NCBI GenBank assembly: GCA_000004985.1
Contig: GG738857.1
Length of the DNA stretch: 64,000 bases
Direction: 5' to 3' (one strand)
Source of the DNA: Naegleria gruberi
Lineage: Eukaryota
The notes beneath the pieces are model-generated. The model worked only from the letters and a program-made list of their open reading frames with translations. It was not told where the DNA came from and did not search any database. The translations under genes and the position numbers were made by a program. Shown one piece after another: positions 45,837 to 64,000 of the stretch; the first letter of the stretch is position 1, and each line of letters begins with the position of its first letter.

Positions 45837-46000
45837 TTTGACTTAATGAATCAATATCACCTGCTTACTCAACTGCCACTCAACTCAATTGCTACAAAAC
45901 AGGTTCAAAGAAAAAAAGTTGAGCGGGATAAGAAGGGAAATCAAGTTGGGCTAAATTTCGAATAGTTGTTTGTAGAACTTACATTTTGTGTGTTGGGAGT

Positions 46001-48516
46001 TTATTGTTTGAGTTTTCTATTTTCCTCTTCCAATATTTTAATTCTTTCTAACAGGTTGCTATTTTCCATGGTGTTTTCATCCAAAAGTTTATATAGGTTG
46101 GTGTTTTCCTCTGCGAGTTTGGTATTTTCATCCGAAAGTTTATCAACTTCCTCTGCAAGTTGAGAGTAACTTCTTAATGGTGATATTTTCTTCAATTCTC
46201 CAACTTGTTTTTCAATATTCAAAGTGATATCTTTGATTTCACCTTTCAAGTATTTCAAAATATTCTCAATGGTTAACTTGTGAGAATAACAATTCAATCT
46301 TTTTGATGAATCTCTTTGAATCATGCTAATAATGCTTCTAATCAATATATTATTCACTCCTAAATCTGGATTAATTGATTGATTGATTAGTTTTTCAATT
46401 GCATAATGTAATTTCATTTCTCCCTCTGTTGTTGTCACAACTGTATAGAAATATTTTCCATGTCCACTTAAATATGGATACTTGTCATTATATTTAGAGA
46501 CATCTGGATCATTAACAAATGTTGAACATAGTTGCAGAGGACAATTTGCTAATAATTTCAATAAAATACATCCCAATGAAAATATATCACATGAAATGGT
46601 AATTTGTCCAACATTGTGAGCAAGCTTTTCATCATTATCACTTTTCAATAAATCATCAGAATAATTATCATGTGAAACTTCAGGAGACATGTAGGCAAAC
46701 TTTCCACGAGCAATTGTAATTGAATTACCTGTCTTGATAACTCTTGATGTTTCAAAATCAATTATCTTGTATAAATCTTGAACTTTGACAATATTTTGAG
46801 GATCTAAATCTCTGTGTAAAATATTGTGATCATGAATTGATTGAACTGAGTTCAATACTTTGATAAATATATCAAGAATTTCAATCAACTTTTCCTTAAT
46901 AATGAATCCATTTCTATAAATTCCATCTTGATTATTTCTTGAAATATAATTTGATAATGATTCCTCTCCAAGTTCCATCACTGTATACAAATGATTTTGA
47001 ATAATGTCACAATCAAAACATTTGATCTTTCCTTCAATGTCTGTTCTTTTCAATAAATTAATGGTTTCTTTTGTTGATTCTTCAGATTCCTCTGGGTCAT
47101 ATTTTAATTTTAATGCCCTTAATGATTTACTACTTTTGTGAAATACTTTGAATGCAACACCTTCACCTCCATATCCTAATACTGAAATGAAATCATAATT
47201 ATATTTGAAATAATTATAGAAATAATTGAGAGCTTTGAATACTTTTGATAAATCTCCTCTCAGCTCATTATATTTACAAATTATTTGTTTGTAATTTACA
47301 AATGTTTTCTCATTTTCAAACCACTTGTTGGCAAAATTCATAATTTCATTAATTTCCTGTTTTGAATAAAATGATGTTTCGAAATTTGTTGCAACTTGTT
47401 CCACAATATTCTTCAAATCTTTCATTCTTGTTGATTGACAGGGATTATCTTCAATAAATTTGTCCAATCTGAAACAAAATAAATAATAGTTAGCTCTTTC
47501 TGAAAGAACATTTTCAGTGGATAATTCTGAATGGTTCATTTGTTTCAATATTTGAAAAAAAATCAACTTTTCAACAAATATTGGTGTGTAGATAGGATTA
47601 AAATTGAATATTGTACTTTTTGGTGTTGGATTAAAGAGACTTGTTAATTCAATACCATAATATAAATCCTTTTCATCCATAAATATTTTGGAGTATTGTT
47701 CAATTATATTGCTTGACAGCTTTGTCTGAAGATTAATGGATTCTTCAATGGTTTTGGTTATAGAGGGTGAGAACCTTCTTGCATTTTCCTTGTTCAATTT
47801 AATTAATAAATAAATAAATATACTATCTTTTTTAAATGATTCATCAGCATGCTTAAGTGCCAATCCAGCTTGTTTAACAGATTCCAATATAAATTCTCTA
47901 TCTTTTTTCAATGATGAATCAGCATATTCAAGTGCATATCCATCTTGTTTGACAGACTCCAATACAATTTCTCTATCTTTTTTAAATGATGAATCAGCAA
48001 ATTCAAGTGCCAATCCATCTTGTTTGACAGATTCCAATACAATTTCTCTATCTTTTTTAATATTGAATCAGCAAATTCAAGTGCCAATCCATGTTGTTTA
48101 ACAGATTCCAATATAAATTCTCTATCCTTTTTCAATGATGAATCAGCATATTTGAGTGCTGGTCCATAGCGTATAACAGCTTCCAATATAATTTCTCTAT
48201 CTTTTTCCAATGATGAATCAACATATAAAAGTGTCAATCCATTTTGTTTAATAGCTTCCAACACAATTTCTCTATCTTTTTTAAATGCTGGATCAGCATA
48301 TTGAAGTGCCAACCCATTTTGTTTAACAGCTTCCAATACAATTTCTCTATCTTTTTTCAATGATGAATCAGCATTTTCAAGTGTTGATCCATTTTGTTTA
48401 ACAGCTTTCAACACATATTTCCTATCGGCCTATTGTTGCAATCATGAATCATCACACCAATAAAAATAATTATTTTCTCCACAGCAACAAATACCAACCC
48501 ACTCGTTTTTGTTCAT
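46001..48516 (-). pseudogene. DUF4116-repeat / atypical kinase / coiled-coil family, copy C, with a frameshift near 48058. Exon 1 is complement(48499..48516) and the intron is 48430..48498
   Basis: The micro-exon ATGAACAAAAACGAGTGG (MNKNEW) is followed by a GTTGGT...CAACAATAG intron. ORFs 47908..48414 and 46001..48037 overlap in different frames. A 1-nt loss in tcttttttaatattgaatca (consensus tcttttttaaatgatgaatca) at about 48058 explains the shift. The repeat array is shorter (about 8 units). The C-terminal tail has extra LxEEN(T/S)xL mini-repeats. Confidence 0.65.
47830..48429 (-). repeat. Tandem 75-bp coding repeat array of family copy C (about 8 units)
   Basis: Same unit. Includes the frameshifted unit near 48058. 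Confidence 0.8.
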
Positions 48517-49598
48517 TTTTTTAAAGGTATTCTAGACCATCACATTCCGAATCAACTTGATGATTTTTACACCCAAAAAGAACAGTTTCAACTATTACAG
48601 ATGGGTTTTTTTGTTATTGGACGCCATCACATGATCTGTTAAGATTTGCATCCTCTTCTTGTTGATCCATTATGAATTGCTCCTCATCATCTGATTCCGA
48701 GGATCAGAACCAAGCTCTCTCAATCAAATCATCCACCATTAAATCTTGCTCATCTACTTCTGAATTCAACTTCTTAGTCACTCCTTGTTGTGTTTGATAA
48801 GGAATTTATTGCCTAATTTTTGATATATATTTTCAAATGTATGGAGTGTTCCTTTGTGTTGGTGTTTTCTCTATTTTTTTAGGCTTTGAAATAAGGCGCT
48901 AAGATCCACTCATTGATACTGATGAACCATGATCTCAATGAGGTCGAGGAAGATGGATCGAAGAAGAAGCCTATTGATGAATCATCACATAATTGGCATC
49001 ATGATGAAAATAGCAGTCTGGTTGACAGCTGTGTATGTGTAAATAACATCATTATTACTATTCATCTAGCGTTTACTCAATTCATATTCATTCTTATCAT
49101 GTGATTACATAGCTTATTAACCATTACGAACCGTGTGGTCCCATTCTTGCTCTGAATATAAAATTAAAAACCGATCAAAGTTGGTGGCAAGAATGAAAAA
49201 TTTACAAAATCGATCACAAATAAAATAAAATTCAAGTTTTGGTCACCAAAACGACCAAAACGCAGACCAAACAAGTTATTCAAGTTATTGTTGCTTTGAT
49301 TTTTAAATAATATATTTGATAAAATAAAAAGAATAAAAACGGAGCGCGGGAATAAAATTGTAGATGAAGCTTAACATATTGTAAATTTATTGTAAAGTAA
49401 TCTTTTTATGGTTGCATACTTTAATAACAAGCATCATGAATTGCTAGGCAACTCAAGAGTCACTTTAGGGTTGTAATATTTGGTATTGTTGCTGTGTTAC
49501 TATTATCTTTTTTAGAATGCATCCTTTTTTGTCATTTCCATTTCAGTCTTTGTGAAGAAACCTTTCGAATAGAGAAATTGCAAACAAAGAAACAAAAA

Positions 49599-50726
49599 AT
49601 GGGTGGAAAGCTCTCTTCGAATCACAATCATCATCAACACTCCAACAACACTCCACTTCTGCAACAAACTAAACATTCGAATAACAATGACAATCATCAG
49701 AGAATAGTTTTACTGGGAAATACTTCAAGTGGAAAGTCAACTATTTGTGAAATGATTCAATATCAGAAACAACATCAAGCAGATAAATCATGCAATACTT
49801 ACAACCTATTCTATAAGGTAGATTCGAATACAATTTCAAAAACTATTATTGAACAGATATTGTTTGCATCAAAGGATATATCTATTGAGGCAATTATTCG
49901 AGAATATACAAATGATTGCAATAATTTTGATAATTCTACACTTTTTGCATTGTGGAATGATCAGAAATTTAGAAATATTTATCAGAGCTGTCAAGATTCT
50001 CTCAATTTATTCGAAAATGTTGACATTTTTGTAAGGAAACTTAAGAATCATGAAAGTTTCATTCCAGATATTTACATTAAGGGAAATTCTTCTGGAATTA
50101 CAGAGTATGACATTAATTTTGATGACAAGAAAGTGACATTTGTGACTGCAGGTGGAAAAACAAGTGAAAGAAAAAAGTGGAATTTCTGCTTGCAAGGAAA
50201 TGTTTCCGTTTTGGTTTATGTTGTTTCGTTGGCAGAATTCAATCAATCAGGTTATGGAGATGAGAAGGTGAATAGAATGGACGAAAGTTTGAAACTTTAC
50301 AAGGAATTGATGACTCGTGTTTCGAATAGTGGTAATAATACGAGAGTTGTCTTACTGTTTACCAAACCAGATATAATGATGAGGAAACTGAGGAGTTACA
50401 TTGAATTTGGAAGATTATTCGAAACTGAAACACTTACTGATCTTTCACGAATTGTAAACGATTATCACGAAAGGGATGTTCTCAATACAATTATATCGAG
50501 TTTTTTAACCGAAACAAATAATATTTATGGGAAAATACCAGAATATCACATTATTCAGTCGATATCAGAATTGGACATTTCACAACTCGCCAAACTAATG
50601 TTGAATAATGAGAAAAATAGACATTATATTTCTAATTGCTTGTTTGAGAAAATATCGCTTGTGAGATGTTATCAATTAGTGATGGCTCAACAATTGACCG
50701 ATTTAACAATTAAGTGTCAATTATAA
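49599..50726 (+). CDS. Heterotrimeric G-protein alpha-subunit-like protein, highly divergent
   Basis: MGGKLSS N-terminus with the myristoylation Gly2. G1 is LLGNTSSGKST (compare LLGAGESGKST). VTAGGKTSERKKW sits where DVGGQRSERKKW belongs. LLFTKPD sits where NKxD belongs. The real start is the ATG at 49599; the ORF-track start at 49494 is a TTG. Confidence 0.8.
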   Translation: MGGKLSSNHNHHQHSNNTPLLQQTKHSNNNDNHQRIVLLGNTSSGKSTICEMIQYQKQHQADKSCNTYNLFYKVDSNTISKTIIEQILFASKDISIEAIIREYTNDCNNFDNSTLFALWNDQKFRNIYQSCQDSLNLFENVDIFVRKLKNHESFIPDIYIKGNSSGITEYDINFDDKKVTFVTAGGKTSERKKWNFCLQGNVSVLVYVVSLAEFNQSGYGDEKVNRMDESLKLYKELMTRVSNSGNNTRVVLLFTKPDIMMRKLRSYIEFGRLFETETLTDLSRIVNDYHERDVLNTIISSFLTETNNIYGKIPEYHIIQSISELDISQLAKLMLNNEKNRHYISNCLFEKISLVRCYQLVMAQQLTDLTIKCQL

Positions 50727-50957
50727 AGTTTAAGGATGAAGTTATGGTTTTCTGTAAAATAAAGTGCATCTAAAATGAGTTTTACTGGGTCTGTATAAGT
50801 TCCTTTCCTTTGAAGATCCATTTGGAGTGAGAATTGATTTATTTCTTGTGTATCATGTCAATGACATTTTGCTGCACAATTTTGATACTTATTTTCAATA
50901 TGAAGTCGCAAATTTCATTGCTAATACAAAGTATAATCTATCAACCAGGTTTGGTGT

Positions 50958-53900
50958 TTAATTTTGTTTGAGTTTTCTATTTTCCTCTTCTAATACTTTA
51001 ATTCTTTCTAATAGGTTGGTATTTTCCTCTACAAGTTGAGAGTAGCTCCTTAATGGTGAGATTTTCTTCAATTCTCCAACTTGTTTTTCAATATTGAAAG
51101 TGATATCTTTGATTTCACCTTTCAAAAATTTCAAAATATTCTTAATTGTTAACTTGTGAGAATAACAATTCAATCTTTTTGATGAATCTCTTTGAATCAT
51201 GCTAATAATGCTTCTAATCAATATGTTATTCACTCCTAAATCTGCATTAATCGTTTCATTGATTAGTTTTTCAATTGCATAATGTAATTTCATTTCTCCC
51301 TCTGTTGTTGTCACAACTGTATAGAAATATTTTCCATGTCCACTAAAATATGGATACTTGTCATTATATTTAGAGACATCTGGATCATTAACAAATCTTT
51401 CACACAATTGCAAAGGACAATTGGTTAATAATTTCAACAAAATGCATCCCAATGAAAATATATCACATGAAATGGTAATTTGTCCAACATTGTGAGCAAG
51501 TTTTTCATTGTCATCACTTTTCAATAAATCATCAGAATAATTATCATGTGAAACTTCAGGAGACATGTATGCAAACTTTCCACGAGCAATTGTAATTGAA
51601 TTACCTGTCTTGATAACTCTTGATGTTTCAAAATCAATAATTTTGTAATGATCTTGAACTTTGACAATATTTTGAGGATCTAAATCTCTGTGTAAAATAT
51701 TGTGATCATGAATTGATTGAACAGAGTTCAATACTTTGATAAATATTTCAAGAATTTCAATCAACTTTTCCTTATTAATGAATCCATTTCTATAAATTCC
51801 ATCTTGATTATTTCTTGAAATATAATTTGATAATGATTCCTCTCCAAGTTCCATCACTGAATATAAATGATTTTGAATAATTTCACAATCAAAACATTTG
51901 ATCTTTCCTTCAATGTCTGTTCTGTTCAATAAATTAATGGTTTCTTTTGTTGATTCTTCAGATTCCTCTGGATTATATTTTAATTTTAATGCCCTTAATG
52001 ATTTACTACTTTTGTGAAATACTTTGAATGCAACACCTTCACCTCCATATCCTAATACTGAAATGAAATCATAATTATATTTGAAATAATTATAGAAATA
52101 ATTGAGAGCTTTGAATACTTTTGATAAATCTCCTCTCAGCTCATTATATTTACAAATTATTTGTTTGTAATTATCAAATGTTTTCTCATTTTCAAACCAC
52201 TTGTTGGCAAAAATCATAATTTCATTAATTTCCTGTTTTGTATAAAATGACGTTTCAAAGTTTGTTGCAACTTGTTCCACAATATTCTTCAAATCTTTCA
52301 TTCTTGTTGATTGAGAAGGATTATCTTCAAGAAATTTATCCAATCTGAAACAAAATAAATAATAGTTAGCTTTGGTGCTTTGTAAATCAATTAGAGCAAT
52401 AATATCATTAGACAATTCTGAATGGTTCATTCGTTTCAATATTTGAAAAATAATCAATTTTTCAACAAATATTGGTGTGTAGATAGGATTAAAATTGAAT
52501 ATTGTACTTTTTGGTGTTGGATTAAAGAGACTTGTTAATTCAATAGCATAATATAAATCTTTTTCATCCATAAATATTTTGGAGTATTGTTCAATTATAT
52601 TGCTTGACAGCTTTTTCTGAATATTTAAGCATTCTTCAATGGTTTTGGATATAGAAGGTGAGAACTTTCTTGCATTTTCTTTGTTCAATTTAAATAGCAA
52701 ATAAATAAATTCTCTATCTTTTTTAAATGATGAATCAGCGTATTCAAGTGCTCGTACATTTTGTTTAACAGCTTCCAATACAATTTCTCTATCTTTTTTC
52801 AATAATGAATCAGCATATTTAAGTGCATATCCATCTTGTTTGACAGTTTCCAATATAAATTCTCTATCTTTTTTAAATGATGAATCAGCGTATTCAAGTG
52901 CTCGTACATTTTGTTTAACAGCTTCCAATACAATTTCTCTATCTTTTTTCAATAATGAATCAGCATATTCAAGTGTCAATCCATTTTGTTTAACAGTTTC
53001 CAATATAATTTCTCTATCTTTTTTAAATGATGAATCAGCATATTCAAGTGCCAATCCATTTTGTTTAACAGCTTCCAATATAATTTCTCTATCTTTTTTC
53101 AATAATGAATCAGCATATTCAAGTGCCAATCCATTTTGTTTGACAGCTTCCAATATAAATTCTCTATCTTTTTTAAATGATGAATCAGCATATTGAAGTG
53201 CTCGTACATTTTGTTTAACAGCTTCCAATATAATTTCTCTATCTTTTTTCAATGATGAATCAGCATATTGAAGTGCTCGTCCATTTTGTTTAACAGCTTC
53301 CAATATAAATTCTCTATCTTTTAGAAATGATGAATCAGCATATTTAAGTGCATACCCATCTTGTTTAACAGCTTCCAATATAAATTCTCTATCTTTTTTA
53401 AATGATGAATCAGCATATTTAAGTGCATATTCATTTTGTTTAACAGATTCCAATATAATTTCTCTATCTTTTTTAAATGATGAATCAGCATATTTAAGTG
53501 CCAATCCATTTTGTTTAACAGCTTCCAATATAATTTCTCTATCTTTTTTCAATATTGAATCAGCGTATTCAAGTGCCCACCCATTTTGTTTAACAGCTTC
53601 CAATATAAATTCTCTATCTTTTTTAAATGATGAATCAGCATATTGAAGTGCCAATCCATTTTGTTTAACAGCTTCCAATATAATTTCTCTATCTTTTTTA
53701 AATGATGAATCAGCATATTCAAGTGCCAATCCATGTTGTTTAACAGCTTCCAATACAATTTCTCTATCTTTTTTAAATGATGAATCAGCGTATTCAAGTG
53801 CATATCCATTTTGTTTAACAGCTTCCAATATAATTTCTCTATCTTTTTTCAATAATGAATCAGCGTATTCAAGTGCTGGTCCATAGCGTTTAACAGCTTC

Positions 53901-54533
53901 CAATACAATTTCTCTATCTTTTTTAAATGATGAATCAGCATATTGAAGTGCCCACCCATTTTGTTTAACAGCTTCCAATACAATTTCTCTATCCTTTTTA
54001 AATGATGAATCAGCATCTTCAAGTGCCGATCCATTTTGTTTAACAGCTTCCAATATAATTTCTCTATCTTTTTTAAATGATGAATCAGCAAATTCAAGTG
54101 CCAATCCATTTTGTTTAACAGCTTCCAATATAATTTCTCTATCTTTTTTAAATGATGAATCAGCGTATTGAAGTGCCAATCCATAGTGTTTAACAGCTTC
54201 CAATATAATTTCTCTATCTTTTTTCAATAATGAATCAGCGTATTCAAGTGCTGGTCCATAGCGTTTAACAGCTTCCAATACAATTTCTCTATCTTTTTTA
54301 AATGATGAATCAGCATATTGAAGTGCCCACCCATTTTGTTTAACAGCTTCCAATACAATTTCTCTATCCTTTTTAAATGATGAATCAGCATCTTCAAGTG
54401 CCGATCCATCTTGTTTAACAGCTTCCAACACATATTTCCTATCGGCCTATTGTTGTGATCATGATCATCACATTTTATATAATAATTATTTCACCACACA
54501 GCAACAAATACCAACCCACTCGTTTATGTTCAT
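50958..54533 (-). CDS. DUF4116-repeat / atypical kinase / coiled-coil family, copy D, the only apparently intact member. Exons complement(join(50958..54446,54516..54533))
   Basis: The micro-exon ATGAACATAAACGAGTGG (MNINEW) is followed by a 69-nt GTTGGT...AATAG intron (54447..54515). The exon-2 ORF encodes about 23 25-aa repeats, a linker, a kinase domain with the same atypical motifs as the other copies, and a coiled coil (LLERIKVLEEENRKLKQN). It ends in TAA followed by the 3' flank ttgtttgagttttctattttcc shared with the other copies. Confidence 0.8.
52715..54446 (-). repeat. Tandem 75-bp coding repeat array of family copy D (about 23 units, highly homogenised)
   Basis: Near-identical 75-nt units. 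Both alternative sense frames and one antisense frame are stop-free, which gives spurious ORFs 53321..54433 and 52840..53196. Confidence 0.9.
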
Positions 54534-57500
54534 TTTTTTTAAAGCTGTTCTCGCCCATCACATTCCGAATCAACTATCAAGATTTTTACACCAAGATTCA
54601 AAGAGATAAAACTTTGTGAAAAATGTATTCTCTTGATTTATTTTGAAATATTTATAAATTAGAACTAGTAAGTTAAGGGAAGTCATCAAAATTACACTTG
54701 GAGTAGGATGGTTTGAAAACGTCGAACATGAGGGTTGTTGAGAAAAATTAAAAAAGGAAATAATTAATAATATTAATAAATAATATAATTACAAAATAAA
54801 ATAATTAATAATACTACTAATTCAAAGTCAGGAAATTGATTGTTTGTTCAGGTAGATTTTCGATGAAACGACCGAAATTTTGGTTGTTGCTCCCAATACA
54901 GCACCTAGATGGCTGTGAGATTGGATGAAATTGTAGGTGGAGAACCTACCCTCAACTTTAACCTTTGGGAATTTGGGTAGGAACTCAGTAAGAGGAGAAC
55001 TTTCTGTAATTTCACAATGCACTCAGTTGTATTGTGTTACATGCTGTTCAACATTTACTGCTTTCATCTCGGTAAGCAGCATTCTCTGTCAATCATTAAA
55101 AACATACGATTTTCAAACATCTATTTTAGTAAGATTTCCTAATTGAAAATGCAAAACATACCAACATTAAAGCTAAATTATTGGATAAGGTGAACATTGT
55201 AATAATTCTGTTTAGCCAACAAGAACTTGGAACAATATTGGATCAACATCAGGTACATCACGACTCTGTTGATTCTTGGAGTGATTTCACATCTATTAAC
55301 TCCAAGAATTTCACCACATCATCTCATCATGATTTAAATAATAGCAATAATAGTAATTTTTGGAATTTAATCCTTCATCATGATTTGGAAATAATTTTAT
55401 TATTTGGAAAAATTCAAGTTGGTACATCATCATCGGAACAACTACCAACCATCATCATTGTTATTTATCATCATTATAATAGTAATATTTGTGGAAATAA
55501 ATCTGATAATAGTAATATTTTAGTGAAATTCAATATTTTCACTAAAATCATCATCACAGATTTATATATGATAATTTGGAAAATTTTCAATCTAGTATTG
55601 TTCAGCATGGTCAATTCCATCAGGTAAAATCACTTCCGAACATTTCCCTATTGGTTATCATGTATCTCAACATAATAAACAATATATTTATTATCAGATT
55701 TTCATAGTTTTGTGTTTTTACCAACTTCGGGGTATTCATGGTCACCAATCATGATTCATGCCAAAAGAACATAGCCAATCATCTTGAAACATTAATAAAC
55801 TTTTATTAGTACTATTGTAGATGTACTATATCAATTATTTCGTCTTGTTTCGTTGAAATCATGATTTTTCTGTTTTTAATTTCACATCACATACACCATA
55901 TTTGTTGATGTAAATTAGAAATGTAAATAATCCATTCTTGATTCTCTAATCGTGTTTTATTGTGTTTTGGTGTATTTAGGATTTTGAAATTATTCTGAAG
56001 TTATTCTTCATATAAATATGATTCTTCACTTCATGATATGAGGAGGGATTGATATCATGATTGTTTGGAAGTGTTGTACAAATTTTGGACACAACCTGAA
56101 TTGAAATCAGGAAGAAAGAGTCAAATCTTTATCACCATATAAAATAAGATCAATGGTTGTTTCCTCAAACATTGTGCTTCTTTGAAGAATTGAAATATCG
56201 CCATCAATTCTTTCACGTTGATTGATGAATCTATTTCGAACTTGCCTACGACGATAGTTTTTGAGGAGTGGATTGCAAATCCTTCCAGAGAGGCATCTGA
56301 ATTGATTATTATTGACTCTGGAGCGTCGAGCTCTAACCAAGAGCCTTCGGATTATTGGATAATTTTTCGTTATACCCTCAGATCTTTGGCAGGGCCTCGA
56401 TTCACTAGTATAGTTGAATTCCATCCTTTTGAATCTTGTAAACAAGAAAGGAAGTTCACAAAGGAAACAACACACTGTATCATCTCCATCTCATCCTAAA
56501 TAAAGAGTGGACACACCACTTCCTCCCAAAAACTGTTGCGCTCATTAATCTTTGGTAAGGGATTAATTTCTGAGTGAGGTTTTTCATCAATGTTTTTTTC
56601 TTATCCATGTTTTGAAGATCCAACTATTGATAACTTTTTTTTTACATCCTTCAAAGCAGGTTCCAGGCTGTTTCACCATTAAGGTGGTTCAGCCCCCGAG
56701 CTTTAATACCCAATTGTCTAAATATTATATGAACTGTATTTTGTGCGTTTACTATCGAAACATGCCATCGTTTATCTTTCCAAGATAAACCTGTATTCGT
56801 CTTTGGGACAACGTTGATAGGATTTAAAGAATAGGTTATAATTTGGTTTTGTAACATAGAGTCTATCTCTCTCCTTATCCATGTTTTCTCTTTCTGAGAG
56901 AACTTCTGTAGCCGTAAAGATGTTTCCTCTGTCTTTCCAGGAAAGAGTATCGCTGAAAAATGTTGATTCATCCTTATTTGAGTTGTTTTATTACCATAAT
57001 GGCAAAGGTTACTGTATGTGAAGAATCCACCTTAATTTGTAATTTTTTGTTCTGAAGCAGCAAACCAATGACGGAAAATAATATTAGGAAAAGACATCAT
57101 GTTTACTATTTTATTTGATGAAATCAAGTGGAGAATACATAAAACAGATGTTGCTACAAGAAAACACAATGTTAATAATAAAAATATAATTAATTATTGA
57201 AATAATTCAAGGAACTGGCTTTCCATCATGCATAATCTTTACGTAATTGCTCAGCAAAGAGCTTGGAAATTGTTTCACCAATCTTTCCCTTTTCTTGATT
57301 GATATATCTCAACAATAATTCAAGGTGGAAAATCAGCAAGATTTCCAACCTTGAAATTTACCTTGTTGGAAAATTTACCATTAGTGAATTTTATTTATGG
57401 TGCAATGATGATGACCATTAAGATATTTTCCTTAATGATCGGAAGTGAACTTGTTGATGATATTGATGATAAAAGATATGATGAAGCGAAAATTCCACAA

Positions 57501-58279
57501 CTCGATGAATACTAAGTGGAAAAATTCCAACTCTCTTGATGGTGATATTAGACATCCCTACTAATGATACTATGTTGTTGAAATTGATGATGATTCACCA
57601 ACTTGAATTTGTCCAATATCAAAATTACTATCTAATTCCATAACGATAAACTTCCACATAAAACTACTATTATTACTATTATATTGATGATGTATAGATG
57701 ATGAGGTTCCATTCTTGGAGTGGGAAGTTGAAGAACCACTCCGAAAATAAGCTACTCATAAAATTGATATTTTTTTTTGAATGCAAGATACGTCTTGGTT
57801 GAGTTTACTATTCTTTCGATGTCTTTGAGGCTCAAAACTGTGCAATTGGCTTCAGACTCAATATTAAGGAAGTATTGCTTCCATTTTTATTTTGCTTACT
57901 GGATTTTCCAGGAAAGATTTCTCTTAATATTGATAGACGTGGTACTGATAATTTTATAACTGTTAATGGTTTTGGTCCAAAATATGTCAGTAGTGGTACT
58001 GTTATTGCACGAGATAATTCTAAAGGTTATGAAATTTTTAATGCAAATAGAATTTATGATTTATTGTAAATACAAAATGAAGAAAATCAATAAAACTATT
58101 AAATAAATATTTTGTGAAATTGTTATGGCTGATGAAACACTTCTAGTAGTAGTACTTCCATATCTATTAATTGAATTGTTTACGGGAGGAAAAAAAAAAC
58201 TACTTTCATCAAAATTAACGCCTCCAGATGTGCATCCACAGCGCTGGCTATAACAAGAAAATGGACTTGTTGTACAATA

Positions 58280-58825
58280 CTACTCTTGTTGTGTAGAATA
58301 TTTTTGGAACTTTGGTTTGATAGTAATTGTCAAAGGATAATACTCATCAGGAATAGTAGAATTGTCTACCAATCCGAATCCGGTATGCATTATCGCAAAG
58401 AACTTTGAACATCCACAAATACTCTGAACAGCATCAGCATAAGGGTACAAACTGAAAGATGTACCAGGATTAATACATTGATTGTCTGTGTATCTGTAGC
58501 GAACACGATCTGCAAAGAAAATATTTTGAATATCTGTTCTAATTGAAGAATTTCCTCTGTAATAAGGTTTGTCAAGTGAAACATCAAAAGTATAAATTTT
58601 ACATCCTACTGATGAATCCACAAATTTTTTGACTCCATCAAGTTTTAAACTAAAAGGTGTAGTGTAACTTCTATTGGGAATAATAATAGTAATTGGGTTA
58701 TCACCAGAAATCTCTATTACAGAATCTGTTGGAAGATCTTTAACATTGATCAACACATTCGCACAACTCACACATACAAACAATAGCAAGAGCAATAAAA
58801 GAGTGTTAAGAAGACTTCTAGGCAT
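58280..58825 (-). CDS. Hypothetical small secreted Cys-containing protein
   Basis: N-terminal signal peptide (LLNTLLLLLLLFVCVSCA) followed by about 155 aa with 6 Cys. No recognisable domain. Confidence 0.4.
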   Translation of the reverse strand: MPRSLLNTLLLLLLLFVCVSCANVLINVKDLPTDSVIEISGDNPITIIIPNRSYTTPFSLKLDGVKKFVDSSVGCKIYTFDVSLDKPYYRGNSSIRTDIQNIFFADRVRYRYTDNQCINPGTSFSLYPYADAVQSICGCSKFFAIMHTGFGLVDNSTIPDEYYPLTITIKPKFQKYSTQQE

Positions 58826-59099
58826 TGTTTTCTTGTTTGTTGACTCATCTCAATTTGCCACCGCAACTAAATAGAATTGCAAAGAAGAAATGGGTGACCT
58901 TTCATGTCCACTTAAACAAAAAAGATCAATAAAAATGATCCCAAAACGATTATTATAACATATCAGGTAGTTAAATCCAAAGTGAAAGGACGTCCATACA
59001 GTCAAATGATCCACAAACATGTCAATCCCCATTGATTCTGTGTCACCCACATAAAATAATATTCGTAATTAATAATTTGTATATTTGGGTCTATTTGTC

Positions 59100-60540
59100 A
59101 GATATTTGAGTACCTCTTTTTGAGTTATTGTATTGTTGTCAAGCTTTGTAAATTCTCATGAAAGACTCAATGATAGTAGATGTTACTGAACTATATGCTG
59201 TGGTAATGTTTTTCGCAAATTCTTTAGATACAACCTGATTTTCTGGTTTTACAGTGTAGAGACTTAAATAATCTCCAATAAAACTACACCAAACACATTT
59301 TAATGTGAAATTCATAGGAGTTGTTCCCTCAAATATATATAGGAATTATCAGATGTATAACTTTCCGAATTTGAGTGATACCAAAATTGGTACCTTATCT
59401 ATCATAGGTTGGATCTACAGTACAATATCTAGATATTCCAACTAAATCTGGTTCAGATATCTGGACCATTCAAACATAATTTTTTTCTACATTGATTTAC
59501 AATTTTGATTACACTGCGCTTGGTGCACCTCTTACTAAGAAACTCTTTCCTGGAACTTCCTCTGGTGGTAGTTTTTCCATTAGCTGGAATCTGATTCCGT
59601 TTTTTATCCAATCCACAATTATTTCTGAGACGACGAATTCTGTCCAACGTTGATGGAAATGAGAGAGTCTACCACCTAGAGGAACCTGCTTGTCACTGGT
59701 GGAGGAATTGGAGTTGTTAGAACCGGATCCATGGCTATTGAATTGTCTTCTTCCATTATAAGTGGTTGGTGTTTGCTCTATTGAAATGGTCCGAGTCGTA
59801 TGGGACGAAGTGGTTAGACCTTTGATTAAATCTTCTCTTTTGAAGGTTGCTACTACTTTTCTTTGTCTCTGGGTTTTAACCAAGGTATTAACAATTCCTT
59901 TGCAGTTTCAAAACCACCAGAACCGGTTCACCCAATTTAATGGCAATACAATTTAAGTCAGCAATATTCTGGATGAATTCAATAGCTTGAAGCCATTCAA
60001 CTAAATCAAAAGAGTTACCATTTCTCAATCTTTTACAAACTTGTACAATACTTCTAAATTCTTTTCCACCATAAACATCAGGAACAGGGGCGTCAACTTC
60101 TCTGAAGAGTATTTGTAGCAAAGCCATTCTATTCTTGTGTGAAGAGAGTCTGCTGAATATTGTGCATTAGAAGTTGACAATATCAAATCAAATATATCAT
60201 CTGAAGATAACTCGTCATTAATTGACTCTCCAGTGATTGATTGATAGCAATCACGTAGATATTCCTTCAATGAAATACCTTCAGAAACCTTCACCCTTTT
60301 ACCAGTACCGAAATTGTTGTTCGAATCAGATTGTTTAAGATTAAGAATTTAGCGAGAGCAGCACACCTGAAGATACAAGACCGGAATTTTGAGAGGTTTT
60401 CAGGGTTGGCGATACGGTCTTGGCTTTGTTGATATGTAGTGGTTGAATCACCATCAGCATCTGTTGTGTCGGTAGCAGAAGATGAATCAGATGTGCTGAA
60501 TACTTCCACTCTTTGTTTAGTCGCCTATTAAGCATATCGG
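59100..60540 (-). other. Decayed coding remnant, possibly mobile-element derived, broken into four frame-shifted ORFs. It abuts the truncation point of the G-alpha pseudogene
   Basis: ORFs 59509..59883, 59888..60127, 60025..60294 and 60291..60509 are collinear on the minus strand in three different frames, which points to accumulated indels. There is no match to host-gene families recognisable by eye. Confidence 0.3.
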
Positions 60541-61170
60541 AATATTCACTTCTGGAATTACAGAGTATGACATTAATTTTGATGACAAGAAAGTGACATT
60601 TGTAACTGCAGCTGGAAAAACAAGTGAAAGAAAAAAGTGGAAATGTTTCCGTTTTGGCAGAATTCAATCAAACAGGTTATGGAGATGAGAAGGTGAATAG
60701 AATGGATGAAAGTTTGAAACTTTACAAGGAATTGATGACTCGTGTTTCGAATAATGGTAATAATACAAGAGTTGTCTTACTGTTTACTAAACCAGATATA
60801 ATGATGAGGAAATTGAGGAGTTACATTGAATTTGGAAGATTATTCGAAACTGAAACACTTACTGATCTTTCACGAATTGTAAACGATTATCACGAAAGGG
60901 ATGTTCTCAATACAATTATATCGAGCTATTTGAATGCAATAAATAATATTTATGGGAAAATACCAGAATATCACATTATTCAGTCGATATCAGAATTGGA
61001 CATTTCACAACTCGCCAATGTTGAATAATGAGAAAAATAGACATTATATTTCTAATTGCTTGTAATTGCTTGTTTGAGAAAATATCGCTTGTGAGATGTT
61101 ATCAATTAGTGATGGCTCAACAATTGACCGATTTAACAATTAAGTGTAAATTATAAAGTTTAAGGATGAA
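60541..61170 (+). pseudogene. Truncated duplicate of the 3' two-thirds of the G-alpha gene at 49599..50726
   Basis: Near-identical nucleotide sequence to 50088-50760 (acttctggaattacagagtatgacattaattttgatgacaagaaagtgacatttgt...). Internal deletions remove NFCLQGNVSVLVYVVSLAEF-coding segments. The 5' end stops abruptly at 60541 and there is no upstream start. Confidence 0.7.
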
Positions 61171-61284
61171 GTAATAGTTTTCTGCAGAATAAATTGCATC
61201 CATATTGAGTAGGACTGTATGCATCATCTGCCTCTCAACTTTGTTCACAAAATAGTTCAAAGCTGATCAACTTGGGAAATTTCC

Positions 61285-61340
61285 AAATGCCACGCAAAAA
61301 GATTGGATTGTTATTCTCACAAGTTAACCATTAAAAGAGA
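61285..61340 (+). pseudogene. About 50-nt relic of a family kinase domain (KRLDCYSHKLTI-coding), in the opposite orientation inside the copy E 3' flank
   Basis: aaaaagattggattgttattctcacaagttaaccattaaaag matches the kinase C-lobe segment of the family genes (aaaagattggattgttattctcacaagttaacaattgagaat). Confidence 0.5.
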
Positions 61341-61465
61341 AATCGAAATGATTTATTGAACCTTTCAAGTGAAATGAACAAACTGTTCAAATTTCAATGG
61401 CCCAGTTTGAAATCAATATATTTCGCATAGTTGTTTGTGGAACTTACATTTTGTGTGTTGGGAGT

Positions 61466-64000
61466 TTATTGTTTGAGTTTTCTTATTTCTTCTTCCAACA
61501 TTTTAATTCTTTCTAATAGGTTGCTATTTTCCATTGAAAGGTTGGTGTTTTCCTCTGCAAGTTTGTCAACATCCTCTAATAGGTTGGTATTTTCATCCGA
61601 AAGTTTATCAACTTCCTCTGCCAGTTGAGAGTAACTTCTTAATGGTGAGATTTTCTTCAATTCTGCAATTTCCTTTTCAATATTCAAAGTGATATCTTTG
61701 ATCTCACCTTTCAAGTATTTCAAAATATTCTCAATTGTTAACTTGTGAGAATAACAATCCAATCTTTTTGATGAATCTCTTTGAATCATGCTAATAATGC
61801 TTCTAATTAATATGTTATTCACTCCTAAATCTGGATTAATTGATTCATTGATTAGTTTTTCAATTGCATAATGTAATTTCATTTCTCCCTCTGTTGTTGT
61901 TATAACTGTATAGAAATATTTTCCATGACCACTAAAATATGGATAATTATCATTATATTTCGAGACATCTGAATCATTAACAAATCTTTCACACAATTGC
62001 AAAGGACAATTGGTCAATAATTTCAATAAAATACATCCCAATGAAAATATATCACACGAAATGGTAATTTGTCCAACATTGTGAGCAAGCTTTTCATTGT
62101 CATCACTTTTCAATAAATCATCAGAATAATTATCATGTGAAACTTCAGGAGACATGTATGCAAACTTTCCACGAGCAATTGTAATTGAATTACCTGTCTT
62201 GATAACTCTTGATGTTTCAAAATCAATAATTTTGTATAGATCTTGAACTTTGACAATATTTTGAGGATCTAAATCTCTGTGTAAAATATTGTGATCATGA
62301 ATTGATTGAACTGAGTTCAATACTTTGATAAATATATCAAGAATTTCAATCAACTTTTCCTTATTAATGAATCCATTTCTATAAATTCCATCTTGATTAT
62401 TTCTATAAATATAATTTGATAATGATTCCTCTCCAAGTTCCATCACTGTATACAAATGATTTTGAATAATTTCACAATCAAAACATTTGATCTTTCCTTC
62501 AATATCTGTTCTTTTCAATAAATTAATGGTTTCTTTTGTTGATTCTTCAGATTCCTCTGGATTATATTTTAATTTTAACGCCCTTAATGATTTACTACTT
62601 TTGTGAAATACTTTGAATGCAACACCTTCACCTCCATATCCTAATACTGAAATAAAATCATAATTATATTTGAAATAATTATAGAAATAATTGAGAGCCT
62701 TGAATACTTTTGATAAATCTCCTCTCAGCTCATTATATTTACACACTATTTGTTTGTAATTATCAAATGTTTTCTCATTTTCAAACCACTTGTTGGCAAA
62801 AATCATNNNNNNNNNNNNNNNNNNNNNNNNNNNNNNNNNNNNNNNNNNNNNNNNNNAGCCATAAATATTTTGGAGTATTTTTCAATTATATTGCTTGACA
62901 GTTTTGTCTGAATATTTAAGCATTCTTCAATGGTTTTGGATATAGAAGGTGAGAACTTTCTTGCATTTTCTTTGTTCAATTTAAATAGCAAATAAATAAA
63001 TTCTCTATCTTTTTTAAATGATGAATCAACATATTTAAGTGCCAATATATCTTGTTTAACAGCTTCCGAAACAACTTCTCTATCTTTTTTAAATGATGAA
63101 TCAGCATATCTAAGTGTTGATCCATGTTGTTTAACAGTTTCCAATATAAATTCTCTATCTTTTTTCAATAATGAATCAGCATATTCAAGTGCTCGTACAT
63201 TTTGTTTAACAGCTTCCAATATAATTTCTCTATCTTTTTTAAATGATGAATCAGCATATTCAAGTGCCAATCCATTTTGTTTAACAGCTTCCAATATAAT
63301 TTCTCTATCGTTTTTAAATGATGAATCAGCATATTCAAGTGCCAACCCATTTTGTTTAACAGCTTCCAATATAAATTCTCTATCTTTTTTAAATGATGAA
63401 TCAGCATATTCAAGTGCCAATCCATTTTGTTTAACAGCTTCCAATATAATTTCTCTATCTTTTTTAAATGATGAATCAGCATATTCAAGTGCTCGTACAT
63501 TTTGTTTAACAGCTTCCAATATAATTTCTCTATCTTTTTTAAATGATAAATCAGCATATTGAAGTGCTCGTCCATGTTGCTTAACAGCTTCCAATATAAA
63601 TTCTCTATCTTTTAGAAATGATGAATCAGCATATTTAAGTGCATACCCATCTTGTTTAACAGCTTCCAATATAAATTCTCTATCTTTTTTAAATGATGAA
63701 TCAGCATATTTAAGTGCATATCCATTTTGTTTAACAGCTTCCAATATAAATTCTCTATCTTTTTTAAATGATGAATCAGCATATTTAAGTGCCAATTCAT
63801 TTTGTTTAACAGCTTCCAATATAATTTCTCTATCTTTTTTAAATGATGAATCAGCATATTCAAGTGCCCATCCATTTTGTTTAACAGCTTCCAATATAAT
63901 TTCTCTATCTTTTTTAAATGATTAATCAGCATATTCAAGTGCCCACCCATTTTGTTTAACAGCTTCCAATACAATTTCTCTATCTTTTTTAAATGATGAA
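61466..64000 (-). CDS. DUF4116-repeat / atypical kinase / coiled-coil family, copy E. It is 5'-partial (runs off the window), is interrupted by an assembly gap, and has an in-frame TAA in the repeat array at about 63921
   Basis: ORF 61466..62806 covers the kinase and coiled coil (tail with extra DKLSDENTNLLE / LAEENTNL mini-repeats). ORF 62803..63894 covers the linker and repeats. The two are separated by 50 N. Upstream, gattaatca stands where the consensus is gattcatca (ADSSF becomes AD*SF). Confidence 0.6.
62807..62856. other. Assembly gap (50 N) inside family copy E
   Basis: Run of n. Compared with copy D, about 480 nt of linker/kinase N-lobe coding sequence is missing here, so the true gap size is unknown. 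Confidence 0.95.
62995..64000 (-). repeat. Tandem 75-bp coding repeat array of family copy E, continuing past the window end
   Basis: Same 75-nt periodic unit as the other copies, with alternative-frame ORFs 63165..63575 and 63612..63974. Confidence 0.85.

What the first reader, a model, noticed from the sequence alone, without database searches (positions are those of the whole stretch)
49599..61170. A G-alpha gene and a family kinase gene form a convergent module that has been duplicated; the second G-alpha copy is a truncated pseudogene
The G-alpha gene (49599-50726, +) lies tail-to-tail with copy D (50958-54533, -), 231 bp apart. Ten kilobases away, a 630-nt near-identical copy of the G-alpha 3' two-thirds (60541-61170, +) lies tail-to-tail with copy E (from 61466, -). 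That fragment has internal deletions and no start codon. The first 60 nt after the G-alpha stop are also shared. The G-alpha fragment begins abruptly at 60541, adjacent to a 1.4-kb block of frame-shattered coding remnant (59100-60540). This suggests a segmental duplication followed by truncation through insertion or rearrangement. Copy C (-) is also divergent from the G-alpha gene across a bidirectional region of about 1.1 kb.
Basis: seen in the sequence. Interest (0 to 1): 0.6.

Follow-up and report, generated by a model that had tools for sequence, protein, structure and literature searches.

The report
Duplicated kinase gene with dead G-alpha relic
In the amoeba Naegleria gruberi, a recent local DNA duplication copied a repeat-rich kinase gene together with just over half of the neighbouring G-alpha gene, leaving a broken G-alpha relic beside retrotransposon debris; this is ordinary gene-family evolution, not a special signalling module.

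Summary
The window comes from the public Naegleria gruberi NEG-M scaffold. The G-alpha gene (49599-50726, NAEGRDRAFT_65329) lies tail-to-tail, 231 nt away, with DUF4116-repeat kinase D (50958-54533, NAEGRDRAFT_65330).

The 3' 57% of G-alpha plus 54 nt of flank recurs at 60549-61210, tail-to-tail with kinase E. Substitution identity is 96.3%, about the same as between the D and E kinase cores (96.4%). The copy has -17, -18, -5 and +10 nt indels, needs three frame switches and has no 5' part anywhere in the window. It is an unprocessed pseudogene. Its surviving 108-aa ORF is annotated publicly as a protein (NAEGRDRAFT_65332).

The "frame-shattered" block beside it is debris of a DIRS1-like retrotransposon. 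That element is itself truncated at the junction, so a rearrangement or partial duplication is more likely than a simple insertion.

Kinase E is still under purifying selection (dN/dS 0.19). Kinase copies A, B and C have unrelated neighbours. The G-alpha/kinase pairing is therefore a by-product of one duplication, and no functional module is shown.

The modules are collinear but mosaic: the middle of the intergenic spacer is unrelated and E's 3' end resembles copy C. A 50-N assembly gap lies inside E. Low interest.

The parts
49599..50726 (+). Intact G-alpha gene (NAEGRDRAFT_65329, XP_002679518.1, 375 aa). The subfamily is divergent: it has no switch-I arginine, TAGGK in place of DxGGQ, and TKPD in place of NKxD.
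   Evidence: Pfam PF00503 at 1.9e-45. Exact match to the public protein. Alignment to yeast Gpa1 (9sh6_E). The unusual motifs are conserved in metagenome homologues P0001 and P0002.
50727..50957 (.). Convergent intergenic spacer of 231 nt. Only its first 54 nt (50727-50780) and last 9 nt are shared with the second module.
50958..54533 (-). Kinase copy D (NAEGRDRAFT_65330, 1168 aa). Exon 1 is 54533-54516, the GT-AG intron is 54515-54447, and exon 2 is 54446-50958. It consists of a DUF4116 25-aa repeat array (75-nt period, 52705-54443), a linker, a protein kinase domain and a coiled-coil tail.
   Evidence: Pfam. Repeat-array limits. Intron read from the sequence. The spliced product is identical to XP_002679628.1.
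54593..60548 (.). Spacer between the two modules. It is mostly transposable-element debris, plus one annotated 181-aa ORF with a signal-peptide-like N-terminus (58280-58825, minus strand, NAEGRDRAFT_65331).
59593..60518 (-). Frame-shifted remnant of a DIRS1-like retrotransposon. It contains gag and the N-terminus of the RT ORF. Gag begins at about codon 24, so it is 5'-truncated where it meets the G-alpha relic.
   Evidence: tblastn matches: P0014 and P0015 (N. gruberi predicted proteins) at 60345-59930 with 61-75% identity, E as low as 1e-35; P0016 (RVT_1 protein) at 59685-59593, E=9e-9. Three-frame read.
56154..56908 (-). Further RT and RNase H remnants of the same kind of element, with the RT core missing. 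A gag N-terminal fragment lies on the opposite strand at 56441-56524.
   Evidence: tblastn matches to P0016: 56908-56792 (E=1e-5) and 56426-56154 (E=2e-23). P0014 aa 5-32 matches 56441-56524 on the plus strand (E=2e-6).
60549..61156 (+). G-alpha pseudogene, a copy of parental 50089-50726. It has -17, -18, -5 and +10 nt indels, needs three frame switches, and has no start codon or 5' half. Its longest ORF (60702-61028) is annotated as the 108-aa protein NAEGRDRAFT_65332.
   Evidence: P0017 is identical to that ORF and equals XP_002679519.1.
61157..61210 (+). Co-duplicated 3' flank of G-alpha, 54 nt with 8 mismatches.
61211..61416 (.). Middle of the spacer, with no homology to the parental spacer. 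It contains a 38-nt inverted copy of kinase coding sequence at 61295-61332, which matches E's own 61733-61770 at 97%.
61417..61465 (-). 3' flank of kinase E. It matches the flank of copy C (45952-46000), not that of D.
61466..64000 (-). Kinase copy E, which runs off the end of the window. The kinase domain and coiled-coil (61466-62806) are intact. A 50-N assembly gap lies at 62807-62856, and the DUF4116 array follows from about 62994.
   Evidence: Pfam. N run. D-E core: 96.4% identity, dS 0.116, dN 0.0215, dN/dS 0.19.

Best explanation
This is a recent DNA-level (unprocessed) segmental duplication inside a locally expanding gene family of Naegleria gruberi.

One event copied kinase gene D together with what lay downstream of it: the short convergent spacer and the 3' 57% of the neighbouring G-alpha gene. 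It placed the copy about 10.5 kb away in the same orientation.

The kinase copy (E) kept an open kinase domain and is still under purifying selection. The G-alpha piece had no promoter, start codon or P-loop half. It was dead on arrival, or died when its 5' part was lost, and has since collected four indels.

Its left edge abuts debris of a DIRS1-like retrotransposon that is also cut at that point. The most economical account (inferred, not shown) is a single partial, roughly tandem duplication with one breakpoint inside G-alpha and the other inside the element. The alternative is a full duplication followed by a deletion that removed the G-alpha 5' half and the element's end.

Later exchange among the kinase paralogues (gene conversion or patch repair) remodelled E's 3' end and the middle of the spacer.

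The G-alpha/kinase adjacency is inherited from that one event. Nothing shows it to be a functional unit, and the relic itself does nothing.
For: Organism and genes:
- The kinase hits are named N. gruberi. Copy A is identical to XP_002679510.1. G-alpha, D and the relic ORF are exact public proteins on one 573,072-nt scaffold.

One event:
- The two modules have the same order, orientation and similar spacing (231 vs 309 nt).
- G-alpha vs relic: 24 mismatches in 651 aligned nt, 96.3%.
- D vs E core: 43 differences in 1181 nt, 96.4%.
- D+E is the best-supported two-copy grouping in the site patterns (11 sites; A+B has 10).

Unprocessed copy:
- 54 nt of non-coding 3' flank were copied with no poly-A tract.
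- The kinase family keeps its 5' intron in D and C.

Pseudogene:
- -17, -18, -5 and +10 nt indels, three frame switches, and no 5' part.
- No trace of the missing 490 nt or the upstream region anywhere else in the window.

E is still constrained:
- dS 0.116, dN 0.0215, dN/dS 0.19.

Retroelement:
- Matches to gag-like N. gruberi proteins P0014 and P0015, and to P0016 (RVT_1 plus a weak Dam-like methyltransferase hit).
- Degenerate DIRS1-like copies in N. gruberi are reported in PMC3266345.

Adjacency is not general:
- Homology among copies A, B and C stops at the gene ends.
- Their neighbours are unrelated Ras-like GTPases.

Both modules lie in one gap-free stretch, 1-62806. The duplication is therefore not a scaffolding artefact.
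Against: - The two modules are not continuously homologous. The middle of the spacer (168 vs 206 nt) shows no similarity above shuffled controls.
- E's coiled-coil tail and its 50-nt 3' flank match copy C, whereas D's end resembles P0005, a copy outside the window.
- In the last ~350 nt of the kinase core, E is closer to B than to D.
- These three points need extra events (gene conversion or patching), which are inferred, not shown.
- All five copies differ by only 3-5.5%, so the D/E sister relationship is only weakly resolved.
- dS for G-alpha vs relic (0.07, from 8 synonymous changes) is lower than for D vs E (0.116). dN/dS of about 0.24 is lower than expected if the relic had drifted neutrally since the split. 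Counts are small.
- The region upstream of E lies outside the window, so one-step and two-step scenarios cannot be told apart.
- Genome-wide adjacency and expression could not be examined.
Confidence: 0.85

Rival explanations
1. Functional convergent module. The G-alpha and the DUF4116 kinase would work together, for example as a G-protein/effector pair or through co-regulation by overlapping convergent transcription. The pair would then be duplicated as a unit because of that link.
For: The pair occurs twice in the same arrangement. Both proteins are signalling proteins. Copy C is also convergent with a GTPase, a Ras-family one, 253 nt away.
Against: Both occurrences trace to one duplication, so they amount to one observation. 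After the duplication the G-alpha half decayed while the kinase stayed constrained, which is the opposite of selection on the pair. Copies A, B and C have no G-alpha neighbour and share no flanks with D or E. The GTPases beside A and C are unrelated to each other and to G-alpha. Short intergenic distances are normal in this window.
Confidence: 0.05
2. Two independent events. Kinase E arose from a C-like copy, and a G-alpha fragment was separately moved next to it, for example captured during repair or carried by the retroelement. Under this reading the resemblance to the D module is coincidental.
For: E's 3' flank and coiled-coil tail are C-like, and the middle of the spacer is unrelated to the parental spacer. 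A 38-nt inverted kinase patch in the spacer shows that template-switch-type repair has acted here. The relic directly abuts retroelement debris.
Against: It would require the fragment to land by chance in the parental orientation, at the parental distance, and on the parental side of a kinase copy. The fragment would also need the same divergence as D vs E (96.3% vs 96.4%). E's 5' 800 nt of the core and its linker are closest to D.
Confidence: 0.07
3. Assembly artefact. Under this reading the second module is a diverged haplotype or a mis-joined read pile from a repetitive family, not a real second locus.
For: A 50-N gap lies inside copy E. The family is 95-97% identical across five copies and contains 75-nt tandem arrays, which are hard to assemble.
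Against: The parental module, the spacer, the relic and E's kinase domain all lie in one gap-free stretch, 1-62806. The relic has its own indels, and its junction with transposon debris has no counterpart at the parental locus.
Confidence: 0.03

Closest known systems
Unprocessed (duplicated) pseudogenes produced by partial segmental or tandem duplication in expanding gene families
   Same: A DNA-level copy that retains its non-coding flank and its neighbouring gene. It is truncated at a duplication or rearrangement breakpoint and has frame-shifting indels. Its surviving short ORF has been mis-annotated as a protein.
   Different: Nothing essential differs. The only local colour is that the breakpoint lies in DIRS1-like transposon debris and that the co-duplicated kinase shows signs of later exchange with its paralogues.
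Lineage-specific expansion of G-alpha genes in Naegleria gruberi (de Mendoza et al. 2014, PMC3971589)
   Same: The parent gene is one of the lineage-specific, divergent N. gruberi G-alpha paralogues. It passes the Pfam G-alpha gathering score.
   Different: This paralogue lacks the catalytic switch-I arginine and the switch-II glutamine, and the DxxG aspartate is replaced by threonine. It probably does not cycle like a canonical G-alpha. This rests on sequence alone, with no biochemistry.
DIRS1-like tyrosine-recombinase retrotransposons (Piednoel et al. 2011, PMC3266345)
   Same: A gag-like ORF is followed by an RT/RNase H ORF. The intact relative P0016 carries RVT_1 and a weak Dam-like methyltransferase region. 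That paper reports N. gruberi copies that are few and riddled with frameshifts.
   Different: Only fragments are present here. No tyrosine recombinase and no clear terminal repeats could be shown.
TTK/Mps1-like protein kinases, the name some sources give to family members
   Same: The kinase domain passes Pfam Pkinase. One family member (P0169) is labelled a TTK family kinase.
   Different: The N-terminus is a long DUF4116 repeat array. The catalytic loop reads HRDLDPQN and the DFG motif reads DFE. Orthology to TTK was not tested.

Membership tests
Heterotrimeric G-protein alpha subunit (PF00503) | Match to the family profile above the curated threshold, covering both the Ras-like and helical domains | tested here: met
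   155.9 bits against a cut-off of 48.8. Residues 22-311 match profile positions 12-306 of 333. 232 solved G-alpha chains match at E<=1e-5.
Heterotrimeric G-protein alpha subunit (PF00503) | P-loop GxxxSGKST | tested here: met
   GNTSSGKST aligns to GAGESGKST of Gpa1.
Heterotrimeric G-protein alpha subunit (PF00503) | Catalytic switch-I arginine and switch-II DxxGQ glutamine (GTP hydrolysis) | tested here: not met
   IKG--NSSGI aligns to LKGRIKTTGI, so the arginine falls in a 2-residue gap. TAGGK aligns to DAGGQ. Both changes are conserved in P0001 and P0002.
Heterotrimeric G-protein alpha subunit (PF00503) | NKxD guanine-specificity motif | tested here: inconclusive
   TKPD aligns to NKID. 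The Lys and Asp are kept but the Asn is lost.
Unprocessed (duplicated) pseudogene | High nucleotide identity to a parent gene together with frame-disrupting lesions or truncation | tested here: met
   96.3% substitution identity. Indels of -17, -18, -5 and +10 nt. Three frame switches. The 5' 490 nt are absent.
Unprocessed (duplicated) pseudogene | Non-coding flank and/or neighbouring gene copied too, with no poly-A tail (distinguishes it from a retrocopy) | tested here: met
   54 nt of 3' flank and the convergent kinase gene are copied. No A-run follows the copy.
Unprocessed (duplicated) pseudogene | No expression, or no selection on the product | not testable with these tools
   No transcript data were available. 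dN/dS of about 0.24 rests on only 16 substitutions and mixes the parent and relic lineages.
Conserved functional gene pair (G-alpha + DUF4116 kinase) | The adjacency recurs independently among paralogues | tested here: not met
   Copies A, B and C have no G-alpha sequence nearby. G-alpha matches only 60549-61210 elsewhere in the window.
Conserved functional gene pair (G-alpha + DUF4116 kinase) | The adjacency is conserved genome-wide or in other species | not testable with these tools
   N. gruberi proteins are not in the gene-position index. The metagenome scan found no related locus. The only contig carrying a homologue is 1572 nt and holds just that gene.
DIRS1-like retrotransposon | Reverse transcriptase and RNase H | tested here: met
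   Window remnants match P0016 at three sites (E=9e-9, 1e-5, 2e-23). P0016 hits RVT_1 at 8e-24. The RT core itself is missing from the window copy.
DIRS1-like retrotransposon | Methyltransferase-like domain after RNase H | tested here: inconclusive
   P0016 residues 490-549 hit Pfam Dam at E=4e-4, 20.5 bits, below the 28.1-bit cut-off. No counterpart was found in the window.
DIRS1-like retrotransposon | Tyrosine recombinase, and inverted or split terminal repeats | tested here: inconclusive
   No recombinase remnant was recognised in the three-frame read. An inverted repeat (55272-55434 / 57586-57748, 73-90%) flanks the RT/RH remnants, but both arms read like coding sequence.
Eukaryotic protein kinase (PF00069) | Profile match and core catalytic motifs | tested here: inconclusive
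   Pkinase 85.9 bits against a cut-off of 31.7. The Gly-loop GYGGEG, the ALK lysine, HRD and SPE are present. However, the catalytic loop is HRDLDPQN and DFG is DFE. Activity is unknown.

The most novel reading that the evidence does not exclude
The G-alpha here belongs to a small conserved subfamily that has lost the catalytic arginine and glutamine, so it may be a permanently 'on' switch or one that does not cycle. It could act together with the convergently transcribed DUF4116 kinase as a lineage-specific signalling pair. In that reading the 108-aa ORF surviving in the relic (NAEGRDRAFT_65332, the C-terminal half of the Ras-like domain) would be expressed as a decoy that competes for the kinase or for receptors.
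Probability: 0.04. Interest if true: 0.45.

Novelty: new member of a known kind. Interest (0 to 1): 0.15.

Why it matters
It matters very little beyond housekeeping.
- NAEGRDRAFT_65332 (XP_002679519.1) should be flagged as a pseudogene fragment, not counted as a protein or as a G-alpha paralogue.
- The model for kinase copy B (NAEGRDRAFT_65322) splices around an in-frame stop codon.
- The locus is a small, datable example of how N. gruberi's large kinase and G-alpha repertoires grow. Growth here is by local DNA duplication with sloppy breakpoints, followed by loss of partial copies and exchange among paralogues.
- The locus gives no evidence that G-alpha and the kinase are functionally coupled.

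Tried and rejected
1. I first concluded that G-alpha and copy D had no public gene model. The exact-product look-ups failed, and the word-indexed searches did not return them. That conclusion was wrong. Exact cluster look-ups show both are annotated. G-alpha was hidden behind its 90%-cluster representative, which is the 108-aa relic ORF.

2. Copy E's apparent ~300-nt deletion and split ORF (61466-62806 / 62803-63894) looked like pseudogenisation. It is a 50-N assembly gap.

3. Pfam scans of the ORF fragments in 55-60.5 kb gave nothing. Identification came only from homologues of a stitched pseudo-protein.

4. I tested for a retroelement insertion splitting a complete G-alpha copy. tblastn and short-word blastn for the 5' 490 nt and the upstream region found nothing, so this was rejected.

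5. I looked for conserved adjacency elsewhere. The metagenome scan with the G-alpha alignment found no related locus. The only contig with a homologue (L001, 1572 nt) has 337 nt of uninformative flank.

6. I asked whether the GTPases flanking copies A and C hint at a general kinase-GTPase pairing. They are unrelated to each other and to G-alpha.

7. Literature searches for DUF4116, for Naegleria G-alpha with kinases, and for related terms turned up no description of such a pair.
Full report
**What the window is.** The window has about 32% G+C and is densely coding on both strands. Homologues of the kinase are named Naegleria gruberi. Copy A of the kinase family is identical to XP_002679510.1 apart from the modelled first exon. 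Exact look-ups place the relevant ORFs on one 573,072-nt NEG-M scaffold:

| Window feature | Public model |
|---|---|
| Copy C | NAEGRDRAFT_65328 |
| G-alpha | NAEGRDRAFT_65329 (XP_002679518.1, 375 aa, identical to 49599-50726) |
| Copy D | NAEGRDRAFT_65330 (XP_002679628.1, 1168 aa) |
| 181-aa ORF at 58280-58825 | NAEGRDRAFT_65331 |
| 108-aa ORF inside the G-alpha fragment | NAEGRDRAFT_65332 (XP_002679519.1) |

An earlier impression that G-alpha and D were unannotated came from how the indexes work. It is withdrawn.

**Checking the observation.** The G-alpha ORF passes Pfam G-alpha (155.9 bits). Copy D carries 18 DUF4116 stretches plus a protein kinase domain. D has a short first exon (54533-54516), a 69-nt GT-AG intron and a long second exon ending at 50958. 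The two stop codons face each other 231 nt apart.

The requested dot-plot shows collinear, same-strand matches:
- 50089-50780 ~ 60549-61210
- 50949-51027 ~ 61457-61532
- 51024-52217 ~ 61613-62806
- 52568-53709 ~ 62859-64000

The copied part is 57% of the CDS. The stop-equivalent position is 61156. Homology starts at 60541-60549.

**The second G-alpha copy is a pseudogene.** Aligned to the parent it has 24 mismatches in 651 positions (96.3%). It also has deletions of 17, 18 and 5 nt and a 10-nt tandem insertion. Following the parental reading frame needs three frame switches. The 17- and 18-nt deletions fall just after the switch-II segment. There is no start codon. The missing 490 nt and the upstream region occur nowhere else in the window. 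Fifty-four nucleotides of 3' flank were copied and no poly-A tract follows, so this is a DNA-level (unprocessed) copy. Its surviving ORF (60702-61028) is P0017, which equals XP_002679519.1. That public "predicted protein" is a pseudogene ORF.

**The block beside it.** Read on the minus strand, 60518 down to 59593 gives, across shifting frames, two recognisable pieces:
- a protein 61-75% identical to two N. gruberi predicted proteins (P0014, P0015; gag-like, no Pfam domain);
- then the motif GGRLSHFHQRW...IVDWIKNGIRFQL, which matches the N-terminus of P0016.

P0016 carries RVT_1 (8e-24) and a weak Dam-like methyltransferase region. That is the RT/RH/MT layout of DIRS1-like elements. Degenerate DIRS1-like copies have been reported in N. 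gruberi (PMC3266345).

More RT and RNase H remnants lie at 56908-56154 on the minus strand. A gag N-terminal fragment lies on the opposite strand at 56441-56524. The 6-kb spacer between the two modules is therefore largely transposon debris from more than one partial copy.

At the junction the gag remnant starts at about codon 24 of P0014, so the element is truncated there too. Both partners are cut and the G-alpha 5' half is absent. This argues against a simple insertion into an intact copy. It favours a breakpoint: either a one-step partial duplication or a later deletion. The window ends inside E, so the two cannot be separated.

**Was it one duplication?** Order, orientation and spacing are the same in both modules. 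Divergence of the G-alpha pieces (3.7%) matches that of the D and E kinase cores (3.6%; 43 differences in 1181 nt). Among informative sites, D+E (11) and A+B (10) are the leading groupings.

The blocks are nevertheless mosaic:
- The middle of the spacer (50781-50948 vs 61211-61416) shows no similarity above shuffled controls.
- That stretch contains a 38-nt inverted patch of kinase coding sequence at 61295-61332.
- E's coiled-coil tail and its 50-nt 3' flank match copy C.
- In the last ~350 nt of the core, E is closer to B than to D.

All five copies are only 3-5.5% apart. I infer later exchange among paralogues on top of a single duplication. That step is inference.

**Fate of the two halves.** For D vs E, dS is 0.116, dN is 0.0215 and dN/dS is 0.19, and E has an open 446-codon kinase/coiled-coil ORF up to the gap. 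The kinase copy is therefore still constrained. E's apparent internal deletion and split ORF come from a 50-N assembly gap at 62807-62856. For G-alpha vs relic, dS is 0.07 and dN is 0.017 from only 8+8 changes. That is too few to read much into.

**Is there a G-alpha/kinase module?** Within the window, no.
- Kinase copies A (14.9-17.7 kb), B (27.95-30.6 kb) and C (46.0-48.5 kb) share homology with D and E only across the gene and a few tens of bases of flank.
- G-alpha sequence occurs only at the parent gene and the relic.
- The neighbours of A and C are two Ras-like GTPases unrelated to each other or to G-alpha.
- Convergent gaps of 49-253 nt are normal here.
- After duplication the G-alpha half was lost while the kinase was kept.

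Genome-wide and cross-species adjacency could not be tested.

**Side observation on the parent G-alpha.** Aligned to yeast Gpa1, it lacks the switch-I arginine, which falls in a two-residue gap. It has TAGGK for DAGGQ and TKPD for NKID. The same substitutions are conserved in the two closest homologues (54-63% identity over the matched regions; P0001 traced to an ENA metagenome contig, P0002 ENA-sourced). More distant relatives are mixed: P0019 keeps DVGGQ, while P0018 and P0020 do not. The protein is probably a poor GTPase. This is a sequence-based inference.

**Verdict.** This is a real, ordinary, recent segmental duplication in a locally expanding kinase family. It left a G-alpha pseudogene abutting DIRS1-like transposon debris. 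There is no evidence for a functional module. Its value lies mainly in correcting the annotation.

Noticed in passing
62807-62856: A run of 50 N (a scaffold gap) lies inside kinase copy E. It produces the apparent ~300-nt deletion relative to D and splits E into two ORFs (61466-62806 and 62803-63894).
   Followed up: yes
60702-61028 (+): The longest ORF in the G-alpha pseudogene is annotated publicly as a 108-aa 'predicted protein' (NAEGRDRAFT_65332, XP_002679519.1). In the 90%-identity clustering it is even the representative that hides the full-length G-alpha.
   Followed up: yes
49599-50726 (+): The parent G-alpha lacks the catalytic switch-I arginine. It has TAGGK for DxGGQ and TKPD for NKxD, and starts with MGGKLSS, which looks like a myristoylation signal. 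The unusual motifs are conserved in two ENA-sourced homologues (54-63% identical over the matched regions). This suggests a constrained, probably GTPase-deficient subfamily.
   Followed up: partly
29303-29305 (+), kinase copy B: An in-frame TAA interrupts otherwise conserved sequence (KWFENE*TFENYKQ), where copy A has CAA and copies C, D and E have AAA. The public model (NAEGRDRAFT_65322, 730 aa) skips the region and resumes at 29429. Copy B may be a pseudogene or may be mis-modelled.
   Followed up: partly
46001-48414 (-), kinase copy C: Copy C is split into two overlapping ORFs (46001-48037 and 47908-48414) inside its DUF4116 array. The public model (792 aa) matches at only 98.4% in one piece, which suggests a frameshift or a modelled intron in the repeats.
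   Followed up: no
50958-52700 (-), and all five copies: The kinase family has an unusual catalytic loop (HRDLDPQN instead of HRDLKPxN) and DFE instead of DFG. These are conserved in every copy, so the proteins may have atypical activity or none. Some family members are labelled 'TTK family protein kinase'.
   Followed up: no
61295-61332: A 38-nt inverted copy of kinase coding sequence sits in the spacer between the relic and copy E. It is 97% identical to E's own 61733-61770. It looks like a footprint of template-switch or patch repair.
   Followed up: partly
55272-55434 and 57586-57748: An inverted repeat of about 160 nt (73-90%) brackets the RT/RNase H remnants. Both arms read as similar peptide (…GKIQVGTSSS… / …GQIQVGESSS…). 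It could be the ends of an internally deleted element or an inverted duplication.
   Followed up: partly
56441-56524 (+), within 56154-56908 (-): A fragment encoding gag residues 5-32 lies on the plus strand, in the middle of minus-strand RT/RNase H remnants where the RT core should be. The transposon copies are nested or rearranged.
   Followed up: partly
58280-58825 (-): An intact 181-aa ORF with a signal-peptide-like N-terminus (NAEGRDRAFT_65331) is embedded in the transposon debris. It has no Pfam match. A 95-aa protein called on a 724-nt ENA contig falls in the same 90%-identity cluster.
   Followed up: partly
44236-45747 (+) and 18393-19865 (+): Two Ras-family GTPase genes lie immediately downstream of kinase copies C (convergent, 253 nt) and A (tandem, about 690 nt). 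They are unrelated to each other, so this looks like coincidence in a GTPase-rich genome.
   Followed up: yes
48433-48573 and 54450-54592: Copies C and D share about 140 nt at 84% identity. The shared stretch covers exon 1, the short 5' intron and about 60 nt upstream of the ATG. Family homology therefore extends slightly into the promoter-proximal region.
   Followed up: no
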